From Candidatus Omnitrophota bacterium (GTDB lineage: Bacteria; Omnitrophota; Gorgyraeia; 2-02-FULL-51-18; JAGOUK01), in assembly GCA_047639455.1 (NCBI GenBank), contig JBLINS010000002.1, positions 226-64,225 on the forward strand: 64,000 nt of DNA. The letters run 5' to 3'. The notes below the pieces were generated by a model that was not told the DNA's origin, made no database searches, and saw only the letters and a list, made by a program, of their open reading frames with translations. Position 1 is the first letter of the stretch; the number at the start of each line of letters is the position of its first letter. Below, piece by piece: positions 10,156 through 18,578 of this stretch. The translations under genes and the position numbers were made by a program.

Positions 10156-10256
10156 GCGCGTCATCATGAGCTGCGCGGAGCAAGCAGCGTAATGATCTCC
10201 CAGAGAAACCTTTTGCTGTGGGATTGTCGCGCCTGCTGCGCGGCTCACAATGACTC
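10156..10256. repeat. Dispersed short repeat (family copy 1) with an internal imperfect inverted repeat
   Basis: The core GTCATCATGAGCTGCGCGGAGCAAGCAGCGTAATGATC ... CTGCTGCGCGGCTCA closely resembles 17655-17760 and is related to the elements at 22171-22260, 33575-33630 and 59495-59630. Confidence 0.5.
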
Positions 10257-10451
10257 TAATAGACTATTAGATAGTAAATTTCTCTTAACAAATACGATTA
10301 AAAAACCAGCACTTTTCAACCTTTATGCCCAGGATGACGAACGTCACTTACTCCGCGCTTGCCACAGATTGACAAGAGTTGGTAGTGTCGGCTCTAGTGG
10401 TACAATATCTTCTGGTTTAGAGAGTATTTATATCATTGGGAGAATAGCATT

Positions 10452-13945: not shown

Positions 13946-14365
13946 ATGCACAAAATAATAATAATCGCCGTAGCTTTTATTTCAATGCTTTGTATAACTT
14001 CACTTAATACGCAAGCAAAAACCACCTTGGGAGGTAAGATTATTTCTCCCAATGACGTGGTCCAAAGCATAGAATGGACTAAAGCTGAATTAGGCCAAGA
14101 TATAGCCAAGCGAGACTTATTCATCAATAGCGTCTGCAGCCATCATATTATTCGTTTGAGCAAAAGTGAAGCGCCTCATACCCACCCCAATCGTGATTTG
14201 AGCATTATTATCCTAAGTGGTGCAGTTCATATGCATTATGGAGATAGAAAGATAGTTGCTAGACAAGGCGACGTTATCATTATTCCGCATGGTGAGGAAC
14301 ATTGGGCTGAAGTAGCAGCGAATAAAATTGCAGTTGCCTATGCTATTTTTACTCAAGCTGAATAA
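13946..14365 (+). CDS. Cupin-domain protein, secreted/periplasmic
   Basis: Signal peptide plus cupin motifs (HTHPNRDLSIIILSG ... GDVIIIPHGEEHWAE). Confidence 0.6.
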   Translation: MHKIIIIAVAFISMLCITSLNTQAKTTLGGKIISPNDVVQSIEWTKAELGQDIAKRDLFINSVCSHHIIRLSKSEAPHTHPNRDLSIIILSGAVHMHYGDRKIVARQGDVIIIPHGEEHWAEVAANKIAVAYAIFTQAE

Positions 14366-14386
14366 TATAGCTCACATTTAGCTGAA

Positions 14387-14402
14387 TGTGATCTATGTCA
14401 CA
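14387..14402. promoter_or_regulatory. CRP/FNR-type binding site TGTGA-N6-TCACA (TGTGATCTATGTCACA), ~90 bp upstream of the hemerythrin gene
   Basis: Perfect match to the CRP-family half-site consensus with 6-bp spacing. It overlaps a second inverted repeat, TCACATT-N6-AATGTGA (14372-14391). An identical 16-mer in reverse complement lies at 16164-16179. Confidence 0.6.
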
Positions 14403-14488
14403 GCATTTACTTCTCTCCTCAGGTATCATCTAATCAAGGTCATTAATACGATTTTTGAAAATGAGGCTTAGTTTGTTTAGGGGGTAGT

Positions 14489-14905
14489 ATGAAAAAAGAA
14501 ATCCATTGGAAGTTATCTTATTCAGTGGGAGTACTTGATTTAGACGTGCATCATCAAGGCTTGATTGAATATATGAATATATTAGATAATGCTGAGAATT
14601 ATAAACAGGATTTGGATGAAATGATATTGAAGACACTAAATGATTTGAGTCGCTATACTCAGTATCACTTCGATCAAGAAGAAAGTTATATGCGACGTCA
14701 TGATTACCCGGGCTTGAATGAGCATCTAGAGGAACACGCGCTTTTTAAGAATGAAATCGAGAACTTTAGTGTGGCCTACAAATTAGGGGATAAAGAAATA
14801 GCGCTTAAGGTAGCTAGTTTTTTAAAGACTTGGTTTATTAAACACATACTCACTATAGACAAGCAATACTCTGACTATTATAAGGAGCGCGGGATAAGCG
14901 TTTAG
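14489..14905 (+). CDS. Bacterial hemerythrin
   Basis: Hemerythrin iron-ligand pattern (W..SVG...DLDVHHQGL; HFDQEESYM...YPGLNEHLEEH; WFIKHILTID). Confidence 0.8.
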   Translation: MKKEIHWKLSYSVGVLDLDVHHQGLIEYMNILDNAENYKQDLDEMILKTLNDLSRYTQYHFDQEESYMRRHDYPGLNEHLEEHALFKNEIENFSVAYKLGDKEIALKVASFLKTWFIKHILTIDKQYSDYYKERGISV

Positions 14906-14908
14906 TTT

Positions 14909-15334
14909 CTAGAGAGATTTGGAATAACGGAATTTCATAAAAGCGACTCCACCTGCCAAAACGACCCGCCAAGCTAATTCTATTTTGTCATTGAATTTGG
15001 GGTCAAATTCTTTAACTGTATCGACGAGTGTATCAAGCCATATGTCATAAAACCGTGGTTCAATATTCAGTTTTTTTGCATTGTGTAAAGTAGCAATATG
15101 CTCTAATGGCTCATCTATGGCTCGCGAGGAGAAGAGATTCATCATATACAAAAGAGAAGCATGTAGCATTTTTTCTTGCCTATGCATATCAGCATCTGTG
15201 AACTTAGCTTTAATTTCGGGTGATTGAGCTATAAACTTCTTATAAAATTGACCATAAAATGCGTGGCTATCTGTGCCCTGAACGCGTTCCAAGCTATCAT
15301 TGAATATTTCGTCTAACTGCATAACTAAAACCAC
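14909..15334 (-). CDS. Single-domain bacterial globin
   Basis: Globin-fold signature stretches (FYGQFYKKFIAQSPEIKAKF..., proximal-His-containing HIATLHNAKKLNIEPRFYDIW). Convergent with the hemerythrin gene. Confidence 0.65.
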   Translation of the reverse strand: MVLVMQLDEIFNDSLERVQGTDSHAFYGQFYKKFIAQSPEIKAKFTDADMHRQEKMLHASLLYMMNLFSSRAIDEPLEHIATLHNAKKLNIEPRFYDIWLDTLVDTVKEFDPKFNDKIELAWRVVLAGGVAFMKFRYSKSL

Positions 15335-15464
15335 CTTGTCTCATCATATAGTGTTTTATTGGCCTCAAATTTAAGCATTCATGATAACACAAAGCTTCAT
15401 TGCGTAACCCCGGTTTAAGCTAACTATGCCCACGACACAGATATTGCTGTACAATGCAGGTACT

Positions 15465-16139
15465 ATGATTAACTTTGAAGATATCCATTTATTTAAGGGC
15501 GTGAACCCAAAAGCGCTCAAAGCTTTGGAAGCCAAAGCTATGCTGAGGAGTTTTGATAAGGGGCAGATTCTGTTTCGTAAAGAGGATGCTTGTAAGAGCA
15601 TATATTTCATTCAAGCCGGTGCTGTCAAAGTTTATAACTTATCCACATCTGGGCGAGAGCAAATATTGCATCAAATGGGTCCTGGAGAGTCCTGTGCTTG
15701 CCATGCTGGCTGTGGTGCGCAAACATGCTCTTCTTCTGCCGAAGCGATTGAAGATACAAAGGCTTGGCGTATATGGGCTGGCGACTACTCTGCATTTATT
15801 GCGGCCAATCCCAATAGTTTAGGCCAATTATGTGATAGTTTTGCTGAGCGCATACGTTCGTATTCCACTTTAATTGACGACTTGTCTCTTAAAGATACAC
15901 GCCAACGTCTGATTCGCTTTTTATTGGATATGACGCGTGCAGCCAAAGGCGAGACAGTCTCTGATGCAGATTTGTCGCTTGAGTTCACCCGTGAAGAAAT
16001 AGCTCAGCGTTTGGGAACTACTCGAGAGACAGTTGCGCGTAATTTGTCACTTTTAAAAAGAGAGGGCTTTATTGAAGTCAAGCCGCGCCACATTCGCATT
16101 CTTGACGTTGAAGGCCTTAAGAATATAGATCCCGCCTAA
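15465..16139 (+). CDS. Crp/Fnr-family transcriptional regulator with an internal Cys cluster (C-x-C-x3-C-x4-C)
   Basis: cNMP-binding-domain motifs (FDKGQILFRKEDA...YFIQAGAVKVY) and a C-terminal HTH (REEIAQRLGTTRETVARNLSLLKREGFI). CACHAGCGAQTC cluster in the sensory domain. Confidence 0.8.
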   Translation: MINFEDIHLFKGVNPKALKALEAKAMLRSFDKGQILFRKEDACKSIYFIQAGAVKVYNLSTSGREQILHQMGPGESCACHAGCGAQTCSSSAEAIEDTKAWRIWAGDYSAFIAANPNSLGQLCDSFAERIRSYSTLIDDLSLKDTRQRLIRFLLDMTRAAKGETVSDADLSLEFTREEIAQRLGTTRETVARNLSLLKREGFIEVKPRHIRILDVEGLKNIDPA

Positions 16140-16163
16140 ATAATCCTCGCTGCAACCAATAAC

Positions 16164-16179
16164 TGTGACATAGATCACA
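16164..16179. promoter_or_regulatory. CRP/FNR-type binding site TGTGACATAGATCACA inside a 22-bp palindrome, AACTGTGACATAGATCACAGTT
   Basis: Perfect TGTGA-N6-TCACA. The core is the exact reverse complement of the 14387-14402 site. It lies ~45 bp upstream of ORF 16225. Confidence 0.6.
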
Positions 16180-16224
16180 GTTATTCTTAGCTATATCCCG
16201 CATACTATAAACAGAGACAGAAAG

Positions 16225-16551
16225 GTGTGTGATGTTATGTGGCAAAACCCAGTTCACAAAAAGGCCTATTGGATGTGCATTGATGAGGATTTTAAGAAAA
16301 TGCTCGCTCAATTGATGGTTGCCGAAAGAGATGAAGAATCTGATTTATTTCGTTTTGAATTACATTTGAGAGACGCCGCCGAAATGGCTGTTTTTTCTGC
16401 TGAAGAACAAAAGATTATACGCGACATATACAAAGAATTAATGGTCGACACTGCGCGACATGCTAAAACCATTTATAAGATTTGTGATTTATTGAATGCA
16501 TTATATGAGCGAGAGACAGGGGGTAAGTCGTGCGAGACGAAGAAATCTTAA
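16225..16551 (+). CDS. Hypothetical protein (first half of a possible split ferritin-like pair)
   Basis: ORF directly downstream of the CRP box. Overlaps the next ORF by 22 nt in a different frame. Confidence 0.4.
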   Translation: MCDVMWQNPVHKKAYWMCIDEDFKKMLAQLMVAERDEESDLFRFELHLRDAAEMAVFSAEEQKIIRDIYKELMVDTARHAKTIYKICDLLNALYERETGGKSCETKKS

Positions 16552-16775
16552 CCTTATGGGAACACAGATTCAAACAAATAGTCAAACTTGAAGTTGAATC
16601 TAGTCAAGAATACCAGCACTTACTTAAGCGTTTTTCGCATTTATTGGATGGCACCAAGGTTAGAAAAATTATTCAAAAAATTATTCATGATGAAGACAAG
16701 CACGTCGCAATGTCAAAAAAACTTTTTGATATTGTCAAAAATGAAAAGAAACGTAGGCTTGAAAAGACGGAATAG
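16530..16775 (+). CDS. Hypothetical protein with two ExxH motifs (ferritin/rubrerythrin-like half-site)
   Basis: GTG start preceded by AGGGGG. EYQH and EDKH motifs ~35 aa apart. Confidence 0.4.
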   Translation: MRDEEILTLWEHRFKQIVKLEVESSQEYQHLLKRFSHLLDGTKVRKIIQKIIHDEDKHVAMSKKLFDIVKNEKKRRLEKTE

Positions 16776-16790
16776 AGGCAGTTTGAGAAT

Positions 16791-17318
16791 ATGAGTAATC
16801 GATACGAATATATCAATCAGCTAGAGGGTTGTGGCACAGGCATGTTGACAGCAACAGCCCAATTGAATGAATTAATATTGCAATTAGACCCTTCTAAAGA
16901 AGACGAATTCATGCGTGGCTGTTTGCTAGATATTCAGGCGAGCCTTGCGCGACTAGTCAAAGATATGACTAATCACATCAAGTTGGAAGAAAATATTTTC
17001 TTTCCTTTTGTCTCTACACATATACCTCGCTTGGATATGAGCATCCATTTACTCAAATCAGAACATGGTGATATTTTTAATGAGTTAAGCTACTTAGACG
17101 ATGCATTAATCCGCGGACTCAAGTCATCGCAAGGTTGTGTGTCAGATGTATTTGATGAATTGCACAAAATTGCTGCATGTTTAATGAATATAGTTCGCCA
17201 TCATGTCAATATTGAATCAAGATCAATGCATATGGCCATATTCGCCTATTTAAAACCGCGCGAATTGAATCTATTAAACAAAAAGTTAGACGATTATTCA
17301 TTACAAATAAAAAGTTGA
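16791..17318 (+). CDS. Hemerythrin HHE cation-binding domain protein (RIC/ScdA-like)
   Basis: Pattern H..LEENIFFP ... EHGDI typical of the HHE domain. Confidence 0.55.
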   Translation: MSNRYEYINQLEGCGTGMLTATAQLNELILQLDPSKEDEFMRGCLLDIQASLARLVKDMTNHIKLEENIFFPFVSTHIPRLDMSIHLLKSEHGDIFNELSYLDDALIRGLKSSQGCVSDVFDELHKIAACLMNIVRHHVNIESRSMHMAIFAYLKPRELNLLNKKLDDYSLQIKS

Positions 17319-17384
17319 ACCGTGCGTGTCGAGTTTTGTGCGTCTAGTATCCATAAGAACCTCACTCACTCGGCCCGCTCGTAG

Positions 17385-17765
17385 CATAGACTCTTTATTC
17401 ATCGTCCACTCACCACCACTGCTCCGAGTGCCCCAGGATGACGGTCTTCTCTAATTTATAAATTCTAGACACATAGAATTATACGCTCTCGCATGGCTTC
17501 TCTCACAAGACCAGGTGTAAGGTGTCACGATTAAGGTAGCATCACCACCCTATGACACAATCATCACAAAGTGTTGGTCCTGGGCTTGTAATTATGCGCA
17601 ATAAAATGTGCTAAGTCTTAAAAATATAAAAAAACACTACCACGTCCTCAGCATGTCATCGTGAGCTGCGCGGAGCAAGCAGCGTGACGATCCCCCAGAA
17701 AAAGCTTTTGCTGGGAGATCCTTACGTCGCTTGCTCCGCGCGACTCAGGATAACGTTGTGACCTA
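17385..17765. repeat. Cluster of dispersed repeat elements (degenerate copy A of a longer element)
   Basis: The blocks CCACTGCTCCG...CAGGATGACGGTCTTCTCTAATTTATAAATTCTAGACACATAGAATTATAC, GACACAATCATCACAAAGTGT and GTCATCGTGAGCTGCGCGGAGCAAGCAGCGTGACGATC...ACGTCGCTTGCTCCGCGCGACTCAGGATAACG all recur at 18590-19060 and 10156-10256. Confidence 0.5.
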
Positions 17766-18047
17766 AATTGTGAAATATTGCACCAGGTCTCGTAAAATGT
17801 GTTTATGTGTGAAAGAAATAATTAGATAAGTTATGATTTGAGTATTTTGTTAACTTAGTTTGTGTTAAAAAATCAAAATACGGATTTATATTATCAATTG
17901 TATTGATTTTGAATCAAATAGTGTGGTATTTTCAATCTTCTGAGGGATAAAAAGACATTTATTCAAAATCAAGCATTGAACTAGGTATATTTCAGTATAT
18001 TTTAATATATTTTAGTATTATCTAAGATTAAAGAGGGCGGTATTGTA

Positions 18048-18578
18048 ATGGAAAAAAGAGATATTGAGAGAGAAGAGCGTATGTTTCAGATGATGGAGCG
18101 AATTGCTATGTCACTCGAAAAAGTTGTTGAGGGCCAAATGGCCGTGATTGAAGCTAGTAAAGAATTAGTTGATCGTAGGGCTGGGGTTGGGAGTCGACGT
18201 GCGATTTTAGAGGATAGACGTAGTCAAAGTGCGATTGATCGCCGTGCCGCTGAAGGTTTGCCGGCATTACCGCTTCAATCTAATGGCAATGGTAATAACG
18301 AAGCCTTAGAGGACCAAACAACTACGAGCAATGGCGCTTTTGAGCACCCTAGTGTATTAACTGCGACACAAGTAGCGCGCATGCTGAATACTTCTAAAGG
18401 CACTGTATATCTTTGGGTCAATCAAAACAAAATTCCTTTTATCAAAATTGGTGGCTCCATCCGTTTTCCTGAAGATGAAATTCATAGATGGATATCTAAT
18501 GGCACAGTTTTAGAAAAACCGTCTAGTAGTGCACGCCGCATCCAGAGAAGAACTTCCGAGAGCACCAACCCAGCATAG
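18048..18578 (+). CDS. Excisionase-family (HTH_17/MerR-like) DNA-binding protein with an N-terminal coiled-coil region
   Basis: C-terminal LTATQVARMLNTSKGTVYLWVNQNKIPFIKIGGSIRFPEDEIHRWI matches the excisionase-type HTH pattern. Confidence 0.6.
   Translation: MEKRDIEREERMFQMMERIAMSLEKVVEGQMAVIEASKELVDRRAGVGSRRAILEDRRSQSAIDRRAAEGLPALPLQSNGNGNNEALEDQTTTSNGAFEHPSVLTATQVARMLNTSKGTVYLWVNQNKIPFIKIGGSIRFPEDEIHRWISNGTVLEKPSSSARRIQRRTSESTNPA

What the first reader, a model, noticed from the sequence alone, without database searches (positions are those of the whole stretch)
13946..17318. Two identical perfect CRP-type palindromes, a Cys-cluster Crp/Fnr regulator and haem/diiron genes point to a small O2/NO/redox-stress regulon.
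The 16-mer TGTGATCTATGTCACA (14387-14402) and its exact reverse complement TGTGACATAGATCACA (16164-16179, inside the 22-bp palindrome AACTGTGACATAGATCACAGTT) both match the CRP/FNR half-site consensus TGTGA-N6-TCACA perfectly. The first lies ~90 bp upstream of a bacterial hemerythrin gene. The second lies ~45 bp upstream of an operon encoding two small overlapping ORFs (ExxH motifs, ferritin/rubrerythrin-like) and an HHE hemerythrin-domain (RIC/ScdA-like) protein. Between the two sites sits a Crp/Fnr-family regulator whose sensory domain contains CACHAGCGAQTC (C-x-C-x3-C-x4-C), a candidate metal/Fe-S/haem ligand set unlike the N-terminal Cys cluster of E. coli FNR. A globin gene converges on the hemerythrin gene, and a secreted cupin lies just upstream. 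A CDGSH [2Fe-2S] protein and MsrA lie 3-5 kb upstream. The arrangement suggests a self-contained sensor-regulator-effector module for oxygen, NO or oxidative stress.
Basis: partly seen in the sequence, partly recalled or inferred. Interest (0 to 1): 0.7.

Follow-up and report, generated by a model that had tools for sequence, protein, structure and literature searches.

The report
Four-cysteine Crp/Fnr regulator with hemerythrin targets
This stretch of an uncultivated Omnitrophota genome carries a CRP-like switch protein with four invariant cysteines where relatives bind cAMP, plus two matching DNA docking sites placed to turn on iron-protein genes; the cassette recurs across the phylum and has not been studied.

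Summary
TGTGATCTATGTCACA (14387-14402) and its reverse complement (16164-16179) are the only TGTGA-N6-TCACA sites in 64 kb, against 0.07 expected. They score 10 bits above every other position.

- The regulator (15465-16139, 224 aa) belongs to a discrete clade found almost only in Omnitrophota.
- In that clade Cys43, Cys77, Cys79 and Cys88 are 100% conserved, as is the CRP-type recognition helix R-E-T-V-A-R.
- In 50 of 65 related loci the same palindrome lies just after the regulator's stop codon.
- A TAnnnT -10 element follows exactly 21 nt later. This puts the site centre near -41.5, the class II activator geometry. Both window promoters share it.
- The usual downstream gene is the HHE hemerythrin-domain protein, often with the two half-ferritin ORFs.

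The cysteines replace the cAMP-binding cassette (Cys88 aligns with CRP Arg82). They differ from FNR's cysteines. A metal or Fe-S sensor is likely but unproven, and the signal (O2, NO or Fe-S status) is open. The globin, cupin, CDGSH and MsrA genes have no site.

Verdict: a new variant of a known kind, of moderate interest.

The parts
14387..14402 (.). Operator site 1, TGTGATCTATGTCACA, followed by G at 14403
   Evidence: The homologous position in L001 carries CGTGATACATATCACA. It matches the family logo tGTGAC-N4-GTCACA-G.
14424..14429 (+). Predicted -10 hexamer TATCAT of the bacteriohemerythrin promoter. It starts exactly 21 nt after site 1, so the site centre lies near -41.5.
   Evidence: Sequence. 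L001 has TATTAT at the same spacing. The family logo shows T-A-n-n-n-T at site positions 38-43. 60 of 81 family sites have TAnnnT at exactly this spacing. No transcription start site was measured.
14489..14905 (+). Bacteriohemerythrin (138 aa), predicted target of site 1
   Evidence: NF033749 110.8 bits against a cut-off of 84; PF01814. Conserved with its site in L001.
14909..15334 (-). Single-domain globin converging on the hemerythrin gene. It is a neighbour with no operator site and is not shown to be regulated.
   Evidence: PF00042 26.2 bits against 22. It is deleted in L001, leaving a 70-bp 3' remnant. No site lies upstream.
15465..16139 (+). Crp/Fnr-family regulator of the four-cysteine clade (224 aa)
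   Evidence: PF00027 + PF13545. Homologues and clade definition. AF2 model pLDDT 84.5 with a Crp fold.
15591..15728 (+). Segment encoding the invariant cysteines: Cys43 (15591-15593), Cys77 (15693-15695), Cys79 (15699-15701), Cys88 (15726-15728). It also holds the lineage-specific Cys83.
   Evidence: 120 of 120 homologues have Cys at these four positions; Cys83 occurs in 5 of 120. In the alignment with CRP, Cys88 matches Arg82, Cys77 matches Ile70 and Cys43 matches Ala36.
16023..16040 (+). Recognition helix R187-E188-T189-V190-A191-R192, equivalent to CRP R180-E181-x-x-x-R185
   Evidence: R187, E188, T189 and R192 are invariant in 120 of 120; V190 is kept in 119 and A191 in 118. The correlation of R180/E181 with the G and A of TGTGA is described in PMC1274295.
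16164..16179 (.). Operator site 2, TGTGACATAGATCACA, followed by G at 16180
   Evidence: L001 has TGTGACATACATCACA at the same place. This position, just after the regulator stop, is the one conserved in 50 of 65 family loci.
16201..16206 (+). Predicted -10 hexamer CATACT of the ORF1-ORF2-HHE operon, 21 nt after site 2
   Evidence: Sequence. Identical in L001. Family spacing. Predicted only.
16237..16551 (+). ORF1 (104 aa): two-helix protein with an acidic run in helix 1 (DEE in the window, EEEE(E) in the family consensus) and a (D/E)-T-x-x-H motif with invariant His75. It is a degenerate paralogue of ORF2.
   Evidence: Alignment A3. hhalign against ORF2 gives 72% probability. Found in 16-20 family loci next to ORF2. 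No Pfam family.
16530..16775 (+). ORF2 (81 aa): half-ferritin, rubrerythrin-like helix-loop-helix. Glu21 and Tyr28 are invariant; Glu55-x-x-His58 is at least 90% conserved.
   Evidence: Alignment A2. The profile hits de novo di-iron four-helix bundles (9u78 at 2.7e-10; 2hz8 at 1.6e-4), EncC and bacterioferritin. NCBI names it 'rubrerythrin'.
16791..17318 (+). HHE hemerythrin-domain protein (175 aa), the clade's signature target gene
   Evidence: PF01814 36.9 bits against 25.3. A homologue lies directly downstream of the regulator in 47 of 64 loci, 40 of them with the site in between. Conserved His/Glu.

Best explanation
The region is a one-component sensor-regulator cassette that is conserved across the candidate phylum Omnitrophota.

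The regulator (15465-16139) is a Crp/Fnr-fold dimeric transcription factor. Its recognition helix is the CRP type (R-E-T-V-A-R), and it binds the palindrome (T/A)GTGA(C/T)-N4-(G/A)TCAC(A/T). In the window this palindrome occurs twice. Each copy sits exactly 21 nt upstream of a -10-like hexamer, so the site centre lies near -41.5. The regulator therefore most likely acts as a class II activator, replacing most of the -35 element. Its predicted targets are the bacteriohemerythrin gene and the ORF1-ORF2-HHE operon (two half-ferritin helical proteins and a hemerythrin-domain protein).

The regulator gene has its own promoter and no site, so it is probably made constitutively and switched post-translationally. 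The switch is most likely a tetra-cysteine site (Cys43, Cys77, Cys79, Cys88). This site occupies the place of the cyclic-nucleotide phosphate-binding cassette. It probably holds an Fe-S cluster, or another redox-active metal centre, whose state would be relayed to the DNA-binding domain by the same route cAMP uses in CRP. The signal could be O2, NO or Fe-S/iron status.

Status of each step:
- Shown here by comparison: the clade, its invariant residues, the operator, the promoter geometry and the target genes.
- Inferred: activation rather than repression, the cofactor, and the signal.
For: Site statistics in the window:
- 2 sites against 0.07 expected.
- 10-bit gap to the next best position.

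Footprint in a 91%-identical syntenic relative:
- Both sites, the following G and both -10 hexamers are kept at the same spacing while the flanks diverge.

Family-wide evidence:
- 42 perfect sites in 789 kb of related loci.
- 50 of 65 loci have a site with at most 1 mismatch within 300 nt after the regulator stop, against 0.019 expected per locus.
- The logo is tGTGAC-N4-GTCACA-G-a, followed by T-A-n-n-n-T at site positions 38-43.
- 60 of 81 sites have TAnnnT exactly 21 nt away.
- No canonical -35/-10 promoter is detected at these positions in the window.
- The HHE homologue lies directly downstream in 47 of 64 loci. ORF1/ORF2 homologues occur in 16-20 loci.

Regulator residues:
- R187, E188, T189 and R192 are invariant. 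They correspond to the CRP residues known to specify the G and A of TGTGA (PMC1274295).
- Cys43/77/79/88 are Cys in 120 of 120 homologues.
- They are also Cys in every full-length representative down to 181 bits in a scan of 1.84 billion proteins, and in none of the lower-scoring Crp/Fnr proteins.
- Cys88 aligns with CRP Arg82 and Cys77/79 with Ile70-Leu73.
- In the AF2 model the only isolated beta-bridge residues in this region are 42, 76 and 87, each next to one of the cysteines. This suggests, but does not prove, that they are close in space.

Other site-preceded genes in related loci:
- NirK, CoxB, BioB, three IscR/SufR-like Rrf2 regulators, HemA and c-type cytochromes.
- These fit a redox, respiration or Fe-S theme.
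Against: - There are no experimental data for any member of this clade.
- No coordinates of the model could be read, so clustering of the four thiols in space is inferred from topology only.
- Four cysteines could equally hold structural zinc.
- A site overlapping the -35 region can also repress. The conserved G-A-C after the site resembles the last half of a -35 hexamer, so RNA polymerase might bind without the regulator.
- Only 64 kb of this genome is available, so the regulon is incomplete.
- 15 of 65 related loci lack a recognisable site at the expected place.
- The bacteriohemerythrin target is seen only in the window and its closest relative.
Confidence: 0.62

Rival explanations
1. The regulator, sites and targets are as in the best explanation, but the four cysteines do not hold an Fe-S cluster. 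They bind structural zinc, or they act as a thiol/disulfide redox switch or a thiophilic-metal sensor (Cu, Zn, Cd, As).
For: Tetra-cysteine sites are common zinc sites. Several site-preceded genes in relatives encode copper proteins (NirK, CoxB). A secreted protein with a C-D-E-H-H-x-C motif is preceded by a site in 5 of 5 cases. Thiol-based switching is known in the family from CprK and FLP (my own knowledge). Extra, partly conserved cysteines occur at positions 24, 98 and 132.
Against: The site replaces the effector pocket itself, which argues for a regulatory rather than purely structural role. The dominant targets are iron, haem and Fe-S proteins: HHE, half-ferritins, HemA, BioB and IscR-like regulators.
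Confidence: 0.25
2. The regulator is a repressor. It binds over the -35 region and blocks RNA polymerase until the signal removes it, as proposed for Desulfovibrio desulfuricans HcpR2.
For: The site overlaps the -35 position. Conserved G-A-C at site positions 17-19 could be the 3' half of a -35 hexamer, with a 17-nt spacer to the -10. HcpR2 is modelled as a repressor whose Fe-S cluster is damaged by NO (PMC5701242).
Against: The register between site and -10 is fixed to the nucleotide in 60 of 81 sites across proteins only 40-47% identical to the window's. This is what face-of-helix activator contacts require; steric occlusion does not need it. The -35 'TT' is always replaced by the site's 'CA'. 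In the window only G remains of the -35-like triplet.
Confidence: 0.2
3. The sensor is haem-based, as in CooA, DNR or Porphyromonas HcpR, with one cysteine or histidine as the axial ligand.
For: The window protein's His80 aligns with CooA His77, the proximal haem ligand, and Cys83 aligns with CooA Cys80. The CooA sequence was verified against 1FT9. Many diverse clade members have C-A-C-H. HemA and cytochrome genes are frequent neighbours.
Against: Position 80 is Asn in most members. Four invariant cysteines are more than a haem site needs. The N-terminal Pro2 ligand of CooA is absent.
Confidence: 0.1
4. The palindromes are bound by another CRP-type protein of the cell (for example a true cAMP-CRP), or they are chance or repeat sequences. 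Their nearness to this regulator gene would then be coincidental.
For: TGTGA-N6-TCACA is the generic CRP consensus. The window does contain a dispersed GC-rich repeat.
Against: The site follows the regulator gene in 50 of 65 loci from a whole phylum, against 0.019 expected per locus. The sites are not part of the dispersed repeat. They are conserved in L001 while their flanks diverge.
Confidence: 0.03

Closest known systems
Escherichia coli CRP (CAP) at class II promoters
   Same: Same fold. Same recognition residues R-E-x-x-x-R and the same TGTGA-N6-TCACA half-sites. Site centred near -41.5, overlapping the -35 region.
   Different: The cAMP ligands are gone: Arg82 is replaced by Cys88, and the Gly71-Glu72 region by C-A-C. 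The regulon is a small iron/redox set, not catabolic genes.
FNR (E. coli, Aliivibrio fischeri), the [4Fe-4S] oxygen sensor
   Same: A Crp/Fnr-fold activator with four conserved cysteines. Class II promoter geometry. Relatives' sites precede respiratory and haem genes: CoxB, NirK, HemA and cytochromes.
   Different: FNR's ligands are three cysteines in an N-terminal extension plus Cys122. This clade has no such extension, and Trp101 aligns with Cys122. FNR reads TTGAT-N4-ATCAA with E-x-x-S-R; this clade has R-E-T-V-A-R and reads TGTGA.
Desulfovibrio HcpR1/HcpR2, and the HcpR, DNR and NnrR regulons for nitrosative stress
   Same: HcpR1 binds a perfect TGTGA-N6-TCACA (PMC5701242). Predicted HcpR regulons often include hemerythrin-, ferredoxin- and cytochrome-like genes and dnrN/ytfE (PMC1274295). 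HcpR2 is reported to use an Fe-S cluster. The nearest non-clade sequences in the global scan have RER/PER/SER recognition helices. That is the R180-to-Ser/Pro substitution pattern described for the HcpR1 branch.
   Different: No hcp gene was seen next to any clade member among the genes annotated. [quoted passage not shown] The four-cysteine pattern stops abruptly at the clade border.
RIC / YtfE / ScdA / DnrN di-iron repair proteins
   Same: The HHE target has a hemerythrin-like His/Glu di-iron signature. It is the signature target of a stress-type regulator, as ytfE/dnrN is for NsrR, DNR and HcpR. NCBI names it YtfE.
   Different: It scores 24 bits against a cut-off of 205 for TIGR03652, and 23 against 254 for YtfE, matching only the C-terminal (di-iron) part of those models. 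It is therefore a separate HHE family.
Encapsulated ferritin (EncFtn/EncB/EncC) and designed 'Due Ferri' helix-loop-helix di-iron proteins
   Same: ORF2 is an 81-aa two-helix unit with one Glu in helix 1 and E-x-x-H in helix 2. This is the ligand set that builds a di-iron site across a dimer.
   Different: No encapsulin shell gene or targeting peptide was seen. ORF2 is always paired with a degenerate partner, ORF1, in which the E-x-x-H glutamate is replaced by Thr/Ser. This suggests a heterodimer with an asymmetric metal site.

Membership tests
Crp/Fnr superfamily | N-terminal cNMP-binding-type beta-roll, a long dimerisation helix and a C-terminal HTH_Crp_2 domain | tested here: met
   PF00027 63 bits and PF13545 72 bits. 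AF2 model with pLDDT 84.5. Best PDB matches are T. thermophilus CAP 4ev0 and M. tuberculosis CRP.
cAMP-CRP (equivalog NF008732) | cAMP-contacting residues Gly71/Glu72 and Arg82/Ser83 in the phosphate-binding cassette, and an equivalog-level score | tested here: not met
   61 bits against a cut-off of 266. Arg82 is replaced by Cys88, and the Gly71-Leu73 region by C-A-C.
cAMP-CRP (DNA specificity only) | Recognition helix R180-E181-x-x-x-R185 reading TGTGA-N6-TCACA | tested here: met
   R187/E188/R192 are invariant in 120 of 120. The cognate motif is enriched next to the gene.
FNR (subfamily NF008365) | N-terminal Cys-x2-Cys-x5-Cys plus Cys122; E-x-x-S-R recognition helix; TTGAT-N4-ATCAA sites | tested here: not met
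   76 bits against a cut-off of 228. No N-terminal extension; Trp aligns with Cys122; the helix is R-E-T-V-A-R.
CooA | Haem ligands His77 (Cys75 in the ferric form) and the N-terminal Pro2 | tested here: not met
   The window His80 aligns with His77, but the position is Asn in most of the clade. There is no Pro2.
HcpR (Desulfovibrio type) | Regulator adjacent to or controlling hcp (hybrid cluster protein); TGTGA-N6-TCACA site | tested here: inconclusive
   The site type matches. No hcp gene was found among the annotated neighbours or targets, but not every ORF of every locus was scanned.
Fe-S cluster-containing transcription factor | Cluster detected by spectroscopy or iron/sulfide analysis; ligand residues required for function | not testable with these tools
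   Only the four invariant cysteines and their position in the fold are known.
Bacteriohemerythrin (NF033749) | Score above the curated cut-off; H, HxxxE, H, HxxxxD ligand pattern | tested here: met
   110.8 bits against 84. The sequence contains HH(21-22), H60-x3-E, H79/H82 and H118-x4-D123.
RIC / YtfE (TIGR03652, NF008221) | A full-length match to the RIC model (N-terminal part plus C-terminal di-iron domain) with an equivalog-level score | tested here: not met
   24.3 bits against 204.7, and 22.7 against 254. Only the C-terminal (di-iron) part of the models is matched. The public annotation 'YtfE (RIC family)' is an over-call.
Ferritin-like / rubrerythrin superfamily (ORF2) | Four-helix bundle with two E ... 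E-x-x-H halves | tested here: inconclusive
   ORF2 has one half only: Glu21 and Glu55-x-x-His58. Hits are weak: EncB 18 bits against 90, DUF455 18 against 34. The profile hits designed di-iron bundles and EncC. Oligomer state is unknown.

The most novel reading that the evidence does not exclude
The four invariant cysteines hold an Fe-S cluster inside the former cyclic-nucleotide pocket. That would be a separate origin of Fe-S sensing in the Crp/Fnr superfamily, after the N-terminal cluster of FNR and the C-terminal cluster of Bacillus Fnr. In this version the cluster physically replaces cAMP and drives the same allosteric path. With its always-adjacent hemerythrin-domain target, it would be the main O2/NO/Fe-S-status switch of the uncultivated phylum Omnitrophota.
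Probability: 0.4. Interest if true: 0.72.

Novelty: new variant of a known kind. Interest (0 to 1): 0.55.

Why it matters
Omnitrophota are widespread in groundwater and sediments, are largely uncultivated, and essentially nothing is known about their gene regulation. This cassette gives a concrete, testable regulator-operator-target triplet that is conserved through the phylum. It includes an exact operator logo and promoter geometry, so regulons can be predicted directly from metagenome-assembled genomes.

For students of metalloregulators, it offers a Crp/Fnr protein whose effector pocket has been rebuilt from four cysteines. If these hold a cluster or metal, it would show how the cAMP allosteric mechanism can be re-used for redox sensing.

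It also flags three uncharacterised small metalloprotein families as probable stress or iron-handling proteins:
- the HHE protein;
- the ORF1/ORF2 half-ferritin pair;
- a secreted C-D-E-H-H-x-C protein.

Tried and rejected
- **Rfam and tRNA scans of the whole window** found nothing.
- **Possible third site upstream of the CDGSH gene** (10334, 1 mismatch in the core). Rejected: it is not conserved in L001 and lies inside a dispersed GC-rich repeat.
- **Relaxed searches for more sites in the window.** 1 mismatch gave none. The weight-matrix scan showed no other candidate above 9.5 bits.
- **Duplication as the cause of the identical 16-mers.** Rejected as a needed explanation: the flanks share nothing beyond one G, and in L001 the two sites differ.
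- **Autoregulation.** No site lies upstream of the regulator in the window or in most relatives. Only L010, L021 and L042 have a site in a divergent intergenic region.
- **Reading AF2 coordinates to measure Cys-Cys distances.** No coordinate file is exposed, so only secondary structure could be used.
- **Literature.** Searches for HcpR, Crp with cysteine, Omnitrophota with hemerythrin, and Crp/Fnr with conserved cysteine and Fe-S found no description of this clade. The library lacks many subscription papers, including the primary HcpR1/HcpR2 biochemistry paper. Absence there is not proof.
- **Intrinsic terminators.** None were predicted that would define operon ends.
- **Window's own species in the genome collection.** The one-genome-per-species scan did not return it, so the genome-wide regulon could not be scanned.

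Full report

Yes. TGTGATCTATGTCACA lies at 14387-14402 and its exact reverse complement at 16164-16179.
- They are the only two matches to TGTGA-N6-TCACA in the 64-kb window. 0.07 are expected, and none of 100 dinucleotide-preserving shuffles reaches two.
- Allowing one mismatch adds nothing.
- With a weight matrix derived from related loci, both score 19.6 bits and the next best position scores 9.5.

- a cupin with a signal-peptide-like start (13946-14365);
- a bacteriohemerythrin (14489-14905; NF033749 110.8 bits, cut-off 84);
- a globin on the opposite strand (14909-15334);
- a Crp/Fnr regulator;
- two small overlapping ORFs;
- an HHE hemerythrin-domain protein (16791-17318);
- CDGSH and MsrA genes 3-5 kb upstream.

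Exact look-up shows the window comes from a Candidatus Omnitrophota metagenome-assembled genome.

Small corrections:
- The regulator starts at 15465 (224 aa) and ORF1 at 16237 (104 aa), judged from all homologues.
- The '22-bp palindrome' is an 8+6+8 inverted repeat.

**2. Closest relative**

L001 carries a 91%-identical regulator and is syntenic. Both sites are present at the homologous positions: CGTGATACATATCACA before the hemerythrin gene and TGTGACATACATCACA before ORF1. Their flanks diverge.

The spacers are not identical to each other in L001. The 16/16 identity in the window is therefore not a conserved property; the GTGA...TCAC core is.

The globin gene is deleted in L001, leaving a 70-bp remnant of its 3' end. 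It is a dispensable neighbour.

**3. The regulator belongs to a discrete, phylum-wide clade**

- A search of 5.8 billion proteins gave 243 homologues. The best 120 are 40-47% identical to the window protein apart from the 91% relative, and the few that carry a source name are from Omnitrophota.
- All of them share G-R-E-Q-I-L ... P-G-D-T-C-A-C-N-P-G-x3-W-x-C.
- Cys43, Cys77, Cys79 and Cys88 are cysteine in 120 of 120. R187, E188, T189 and R192 are likewise invariant (V190 in 119, A191 in 118).
- The window's Cys83 occurs in 5 of 120. A cysteine at position 98, common in the clade (78 of 120), is absent from the window protein.
- A profile scan of 1.84 billion representatives found the four-cysteine pattern in every full-length hit down to 181 bits, about 30 clusters at 50% identity. 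It was absent in every lower-scoring Crp/Fnr protein. The clade border is sharp.
- The next-best sequences have ordinary effector loops (G-D-F-F-A-E ... F-D-G-G-x-Y-P-A-S-A) and RER, PER or SER recognition helices. That is the R180-to-Ser/Pro substitution pattern reported for the HcpR1 branch (PMC1274295).

**4. The palindrome is this regulator's operator**

A scan of one genome per species returned 71 clade loci, almost all Omnitrophota MAGs.
- These loci, together with the few more distant ones fetched (789 kb in all), contain 42 perfect TGTGA-N6-TCACA sites.
- In 50 of 65 loci with enough downstream sequence, a site with at most one mismatch lies between 20 nt before and 300 nt after the regulator's stop codon. 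The background rate predicts 0.019 per locus.
- This is exactly the position of site 2 in the window.
- The recognition-helix residues match those of CRP that specify the G and A of TGTGA.

**5. Promoter geometry**

The logo of the 50 sites is tGTGAC-N4-GTCACA, then G (48 of 50) and a/c. After a non-conserved stretch comes T-A-n-n-n-T at site positions 38-43, which is exactly 21 nt after the site.
- Of 81 clade sites, 60 have TAnnnT at precisely that spacing.
- The window has the same arrangement twice: TATCAT at 14424-14429 and CATACT at 16201-16206. L001 has TATTAT and CATACT.
- With a start about 7 nt after the -10, the site centre falls near -41.5, the classic class II position of CRP and FNR activators. 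There the activator overlaps and substitutes for the -35 element.
- A generic sigma-70 scan finds no -35/-10 promoter at these positions.
- The conserved G-A-C after the site can be read as the 3' half of a -35 hexamer. This leaves a repressor model open. However, a register fixed to the nucleotide across such diverged genomes is what an activator needs. I rate activation at about 0.7.

**6. Targets**

- The HHE protein's homologue is the gene directly downstream of the regulator in 47 of 64 loci, 40 of them with the site in between.
- Homologues of ORF1 and ORF2 follow it, or are divergently transcribed from a site, in 16-20 loci.
- In the window the order is ORF1-ORF2-HHE, with overlapping or 15-nt-spaced genes. 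This is one operon.
- ORF2 has an invariant Glu21 and Tyr28 and a nearly invariant Glu55-x-x-His58. Its profile hits designed di-iron helix-loop-helix bundles, EncC and bacterioferritin. It is a half-ferritin that must pair to form a metal site.
- ORF1 is a degenerate paralogue (hhalign 72%). It has an acidic run in helix 1 and (D/E)-T-x-x-H.
- The HHE protein is only distantly related to RIC/YtfE (24 bits against a cut-off of 205), despite its public name.
- The bacteriohemerythrin target is specific to the window lineage.

Other genes preceded by sites in related loci:
- copper nitrite reductase (above its curated cut-off);
- cytochrome oxidase subunit II;
- biotin synthase and two other radical-SAM proteins;
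- three IscR/SufR-like Rrf2 regulators;
- HemA and c-type cytochromes;
- HSP20 and a PAS-GGDEF protein;
- a small secreted protein family with a C-D-E-H-H-x-C motif.

Frequent neighbours are HemA, multihaem cytochromes and an Fe-S/NrfD module. The theme is iron, haem and Fe-S proteins together with respiration of O2 and nitrogen oxides.

**7. The sensor**

I aligned the regulator with CRP, FNR and CooA. The CooA sequence was checked against 1FT9; the CRP and FNR sequences were entered from memory and not checked. The alignment places the cysteines as follows.
- Cys88 falls on CRP Arg82, Cys77 on Ile70, Cys79 beside Glu72/Leu73, and Cys43 on Ala36 at the start of strand beta-3.
- Three cysteines thus rebuild the phosphate-binding cassette.
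- The fourth comes from the strand that pairs with beta-6 in the cNMP fold. This pairing is established topology of the domain and my inference here.
- In the AF2 model (pLDDT 84.5) the loop is the least confident part of the beta-roll. The only isolated beta-bridge residues there are 42, 76 and 87, each adjacent to a cysteine. That fits their being neighbours.
- Coordinates could not be read.
- FNR's N-terminal cysteines and Cys122 are absent. CooA's Pro2 is absent, and its His77 equivalent is not conserved.

I therefore propose a tetra-cysteine metal site, most likely an Fe-S cluster, that replaces cAMP as the allosteric effector. I rate Fe-S at about 0.4-0.45, zinc or a thiol switch at about 0.25-0.3, and haem at about 0.1. 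Whether the active form is holo, oxidised, nitrosylated or apo cannot be told from sequence. Nor can O2, NO or Fe-S/iron status be distinguished as the signal.

**8. What is not part of it**

- The cupin lies upstream of site 1.
- The globin has no site and is variably present.
- CDGSH and MsrA have no conserved site. The one near-match at 10334 lies in a dispersed GC-rich repeat and is absent from L001.

**9. Comparison with known systems and novelty**

The cassette works like a CRP/FNR class II activator, and its regulon logic resembles the HcpR, DNR, NnrR and NsrR nitrosative-stress regulons. Those regulons also include hemerythrin-like and dnrN/ytfE genes.

It fails the membership tests for cAMP-CRP, FNR and CooA. 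The HcpR test is inconclusive.
- No solved structure is closer than 28% identity.
- No curated NCBIfam model reaches its cut-off.
- No paper in the searchable library describes the clade.

I classify it as a new variant of a known kind.

Noticed in passing
window 17320-17790 (hairpin 17648-17761); also about 10170-10360 and about 33593: About 450 nt of GC-rich non-coding DNA lies after the HHE gene and is absent from the syntenic relative. It contains a 114-nt imperfect hairpin. Its core, GCGCGGAGCAAGC, recurs 7 times in the window against 0.72 expected. This looks like a dispersed MITE/REP-like palindromic element. It has no Rfam match.
   Followed up: partly
window 14909-15334 (-) compared with L001 9887-10000: The globin gene is present in the window but deleted in the 91%-related genome, which keeps only a 70-bp remnant of its 3' end. 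In L001 the hemerythrin gene therefore ends 113 nt before the regulator gene and could read through into it.
   Followed up: yes
L005 6745-7050, L018 8166-8474 (and 5151-5447), L026 7339-7644, L031 3896-4201, L061 3326-3634: A family of secreted proteins of about 100 aa has a conserved C-D-E-(H/N/D)-H-x-C motif and no Pfam family. Every one of the five members is preceded by the regulator's operator. It is a candidate periplasmic metal-binding member of the regulon.
   Followed up: partly
window 16530-16775 and 16237-16551: ORF2 is a natural 81-aa helix-loop-helix with the same ligand pattern as the de novo designed 'Due Ferri' di-iron proteins, which are its best PDB profile hits. It is always paired with a degenerate partner, ORF1, in which the E-x-x-H glutamate is Thr/Ser. 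This suggests an asymmetric heterodimeric metal site.
   Followed up: partly
window 15447-15467; L001 9984-10003: The regulator's own conserved -10-like TACAAT ends only about 9 nt before its ATG in the window (about 8 nt in L001). This suggests a leaderless or very short-leader mRNA.
   Followed up: no
proteins P0151, P0153, P0156-P0160 and others: Many proteins of about 900 aa with four tandem cNMP-binding-type domains score highly against the regulator profile. This architecture was not explored here.
   Followed up: no
L001 1-2622: The syntenic relative's locus begins inside a gene called as 5,247 residues with no Pfam hit, a giant protein. The corresponding upstream part of the window was not examined.
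   Followed up: no
window 17800-18047 and 18048-18578; L001 12210-12737: An excisionase-type HTH_17 gene is preceded by a highly conserved AT-rich region with a 15-nt inverted repeat (17903-17917 / 17958-17972). It is conserved in L001. No integrase or tRNA lies nearby, so its role is unclear.
   Followed up: no
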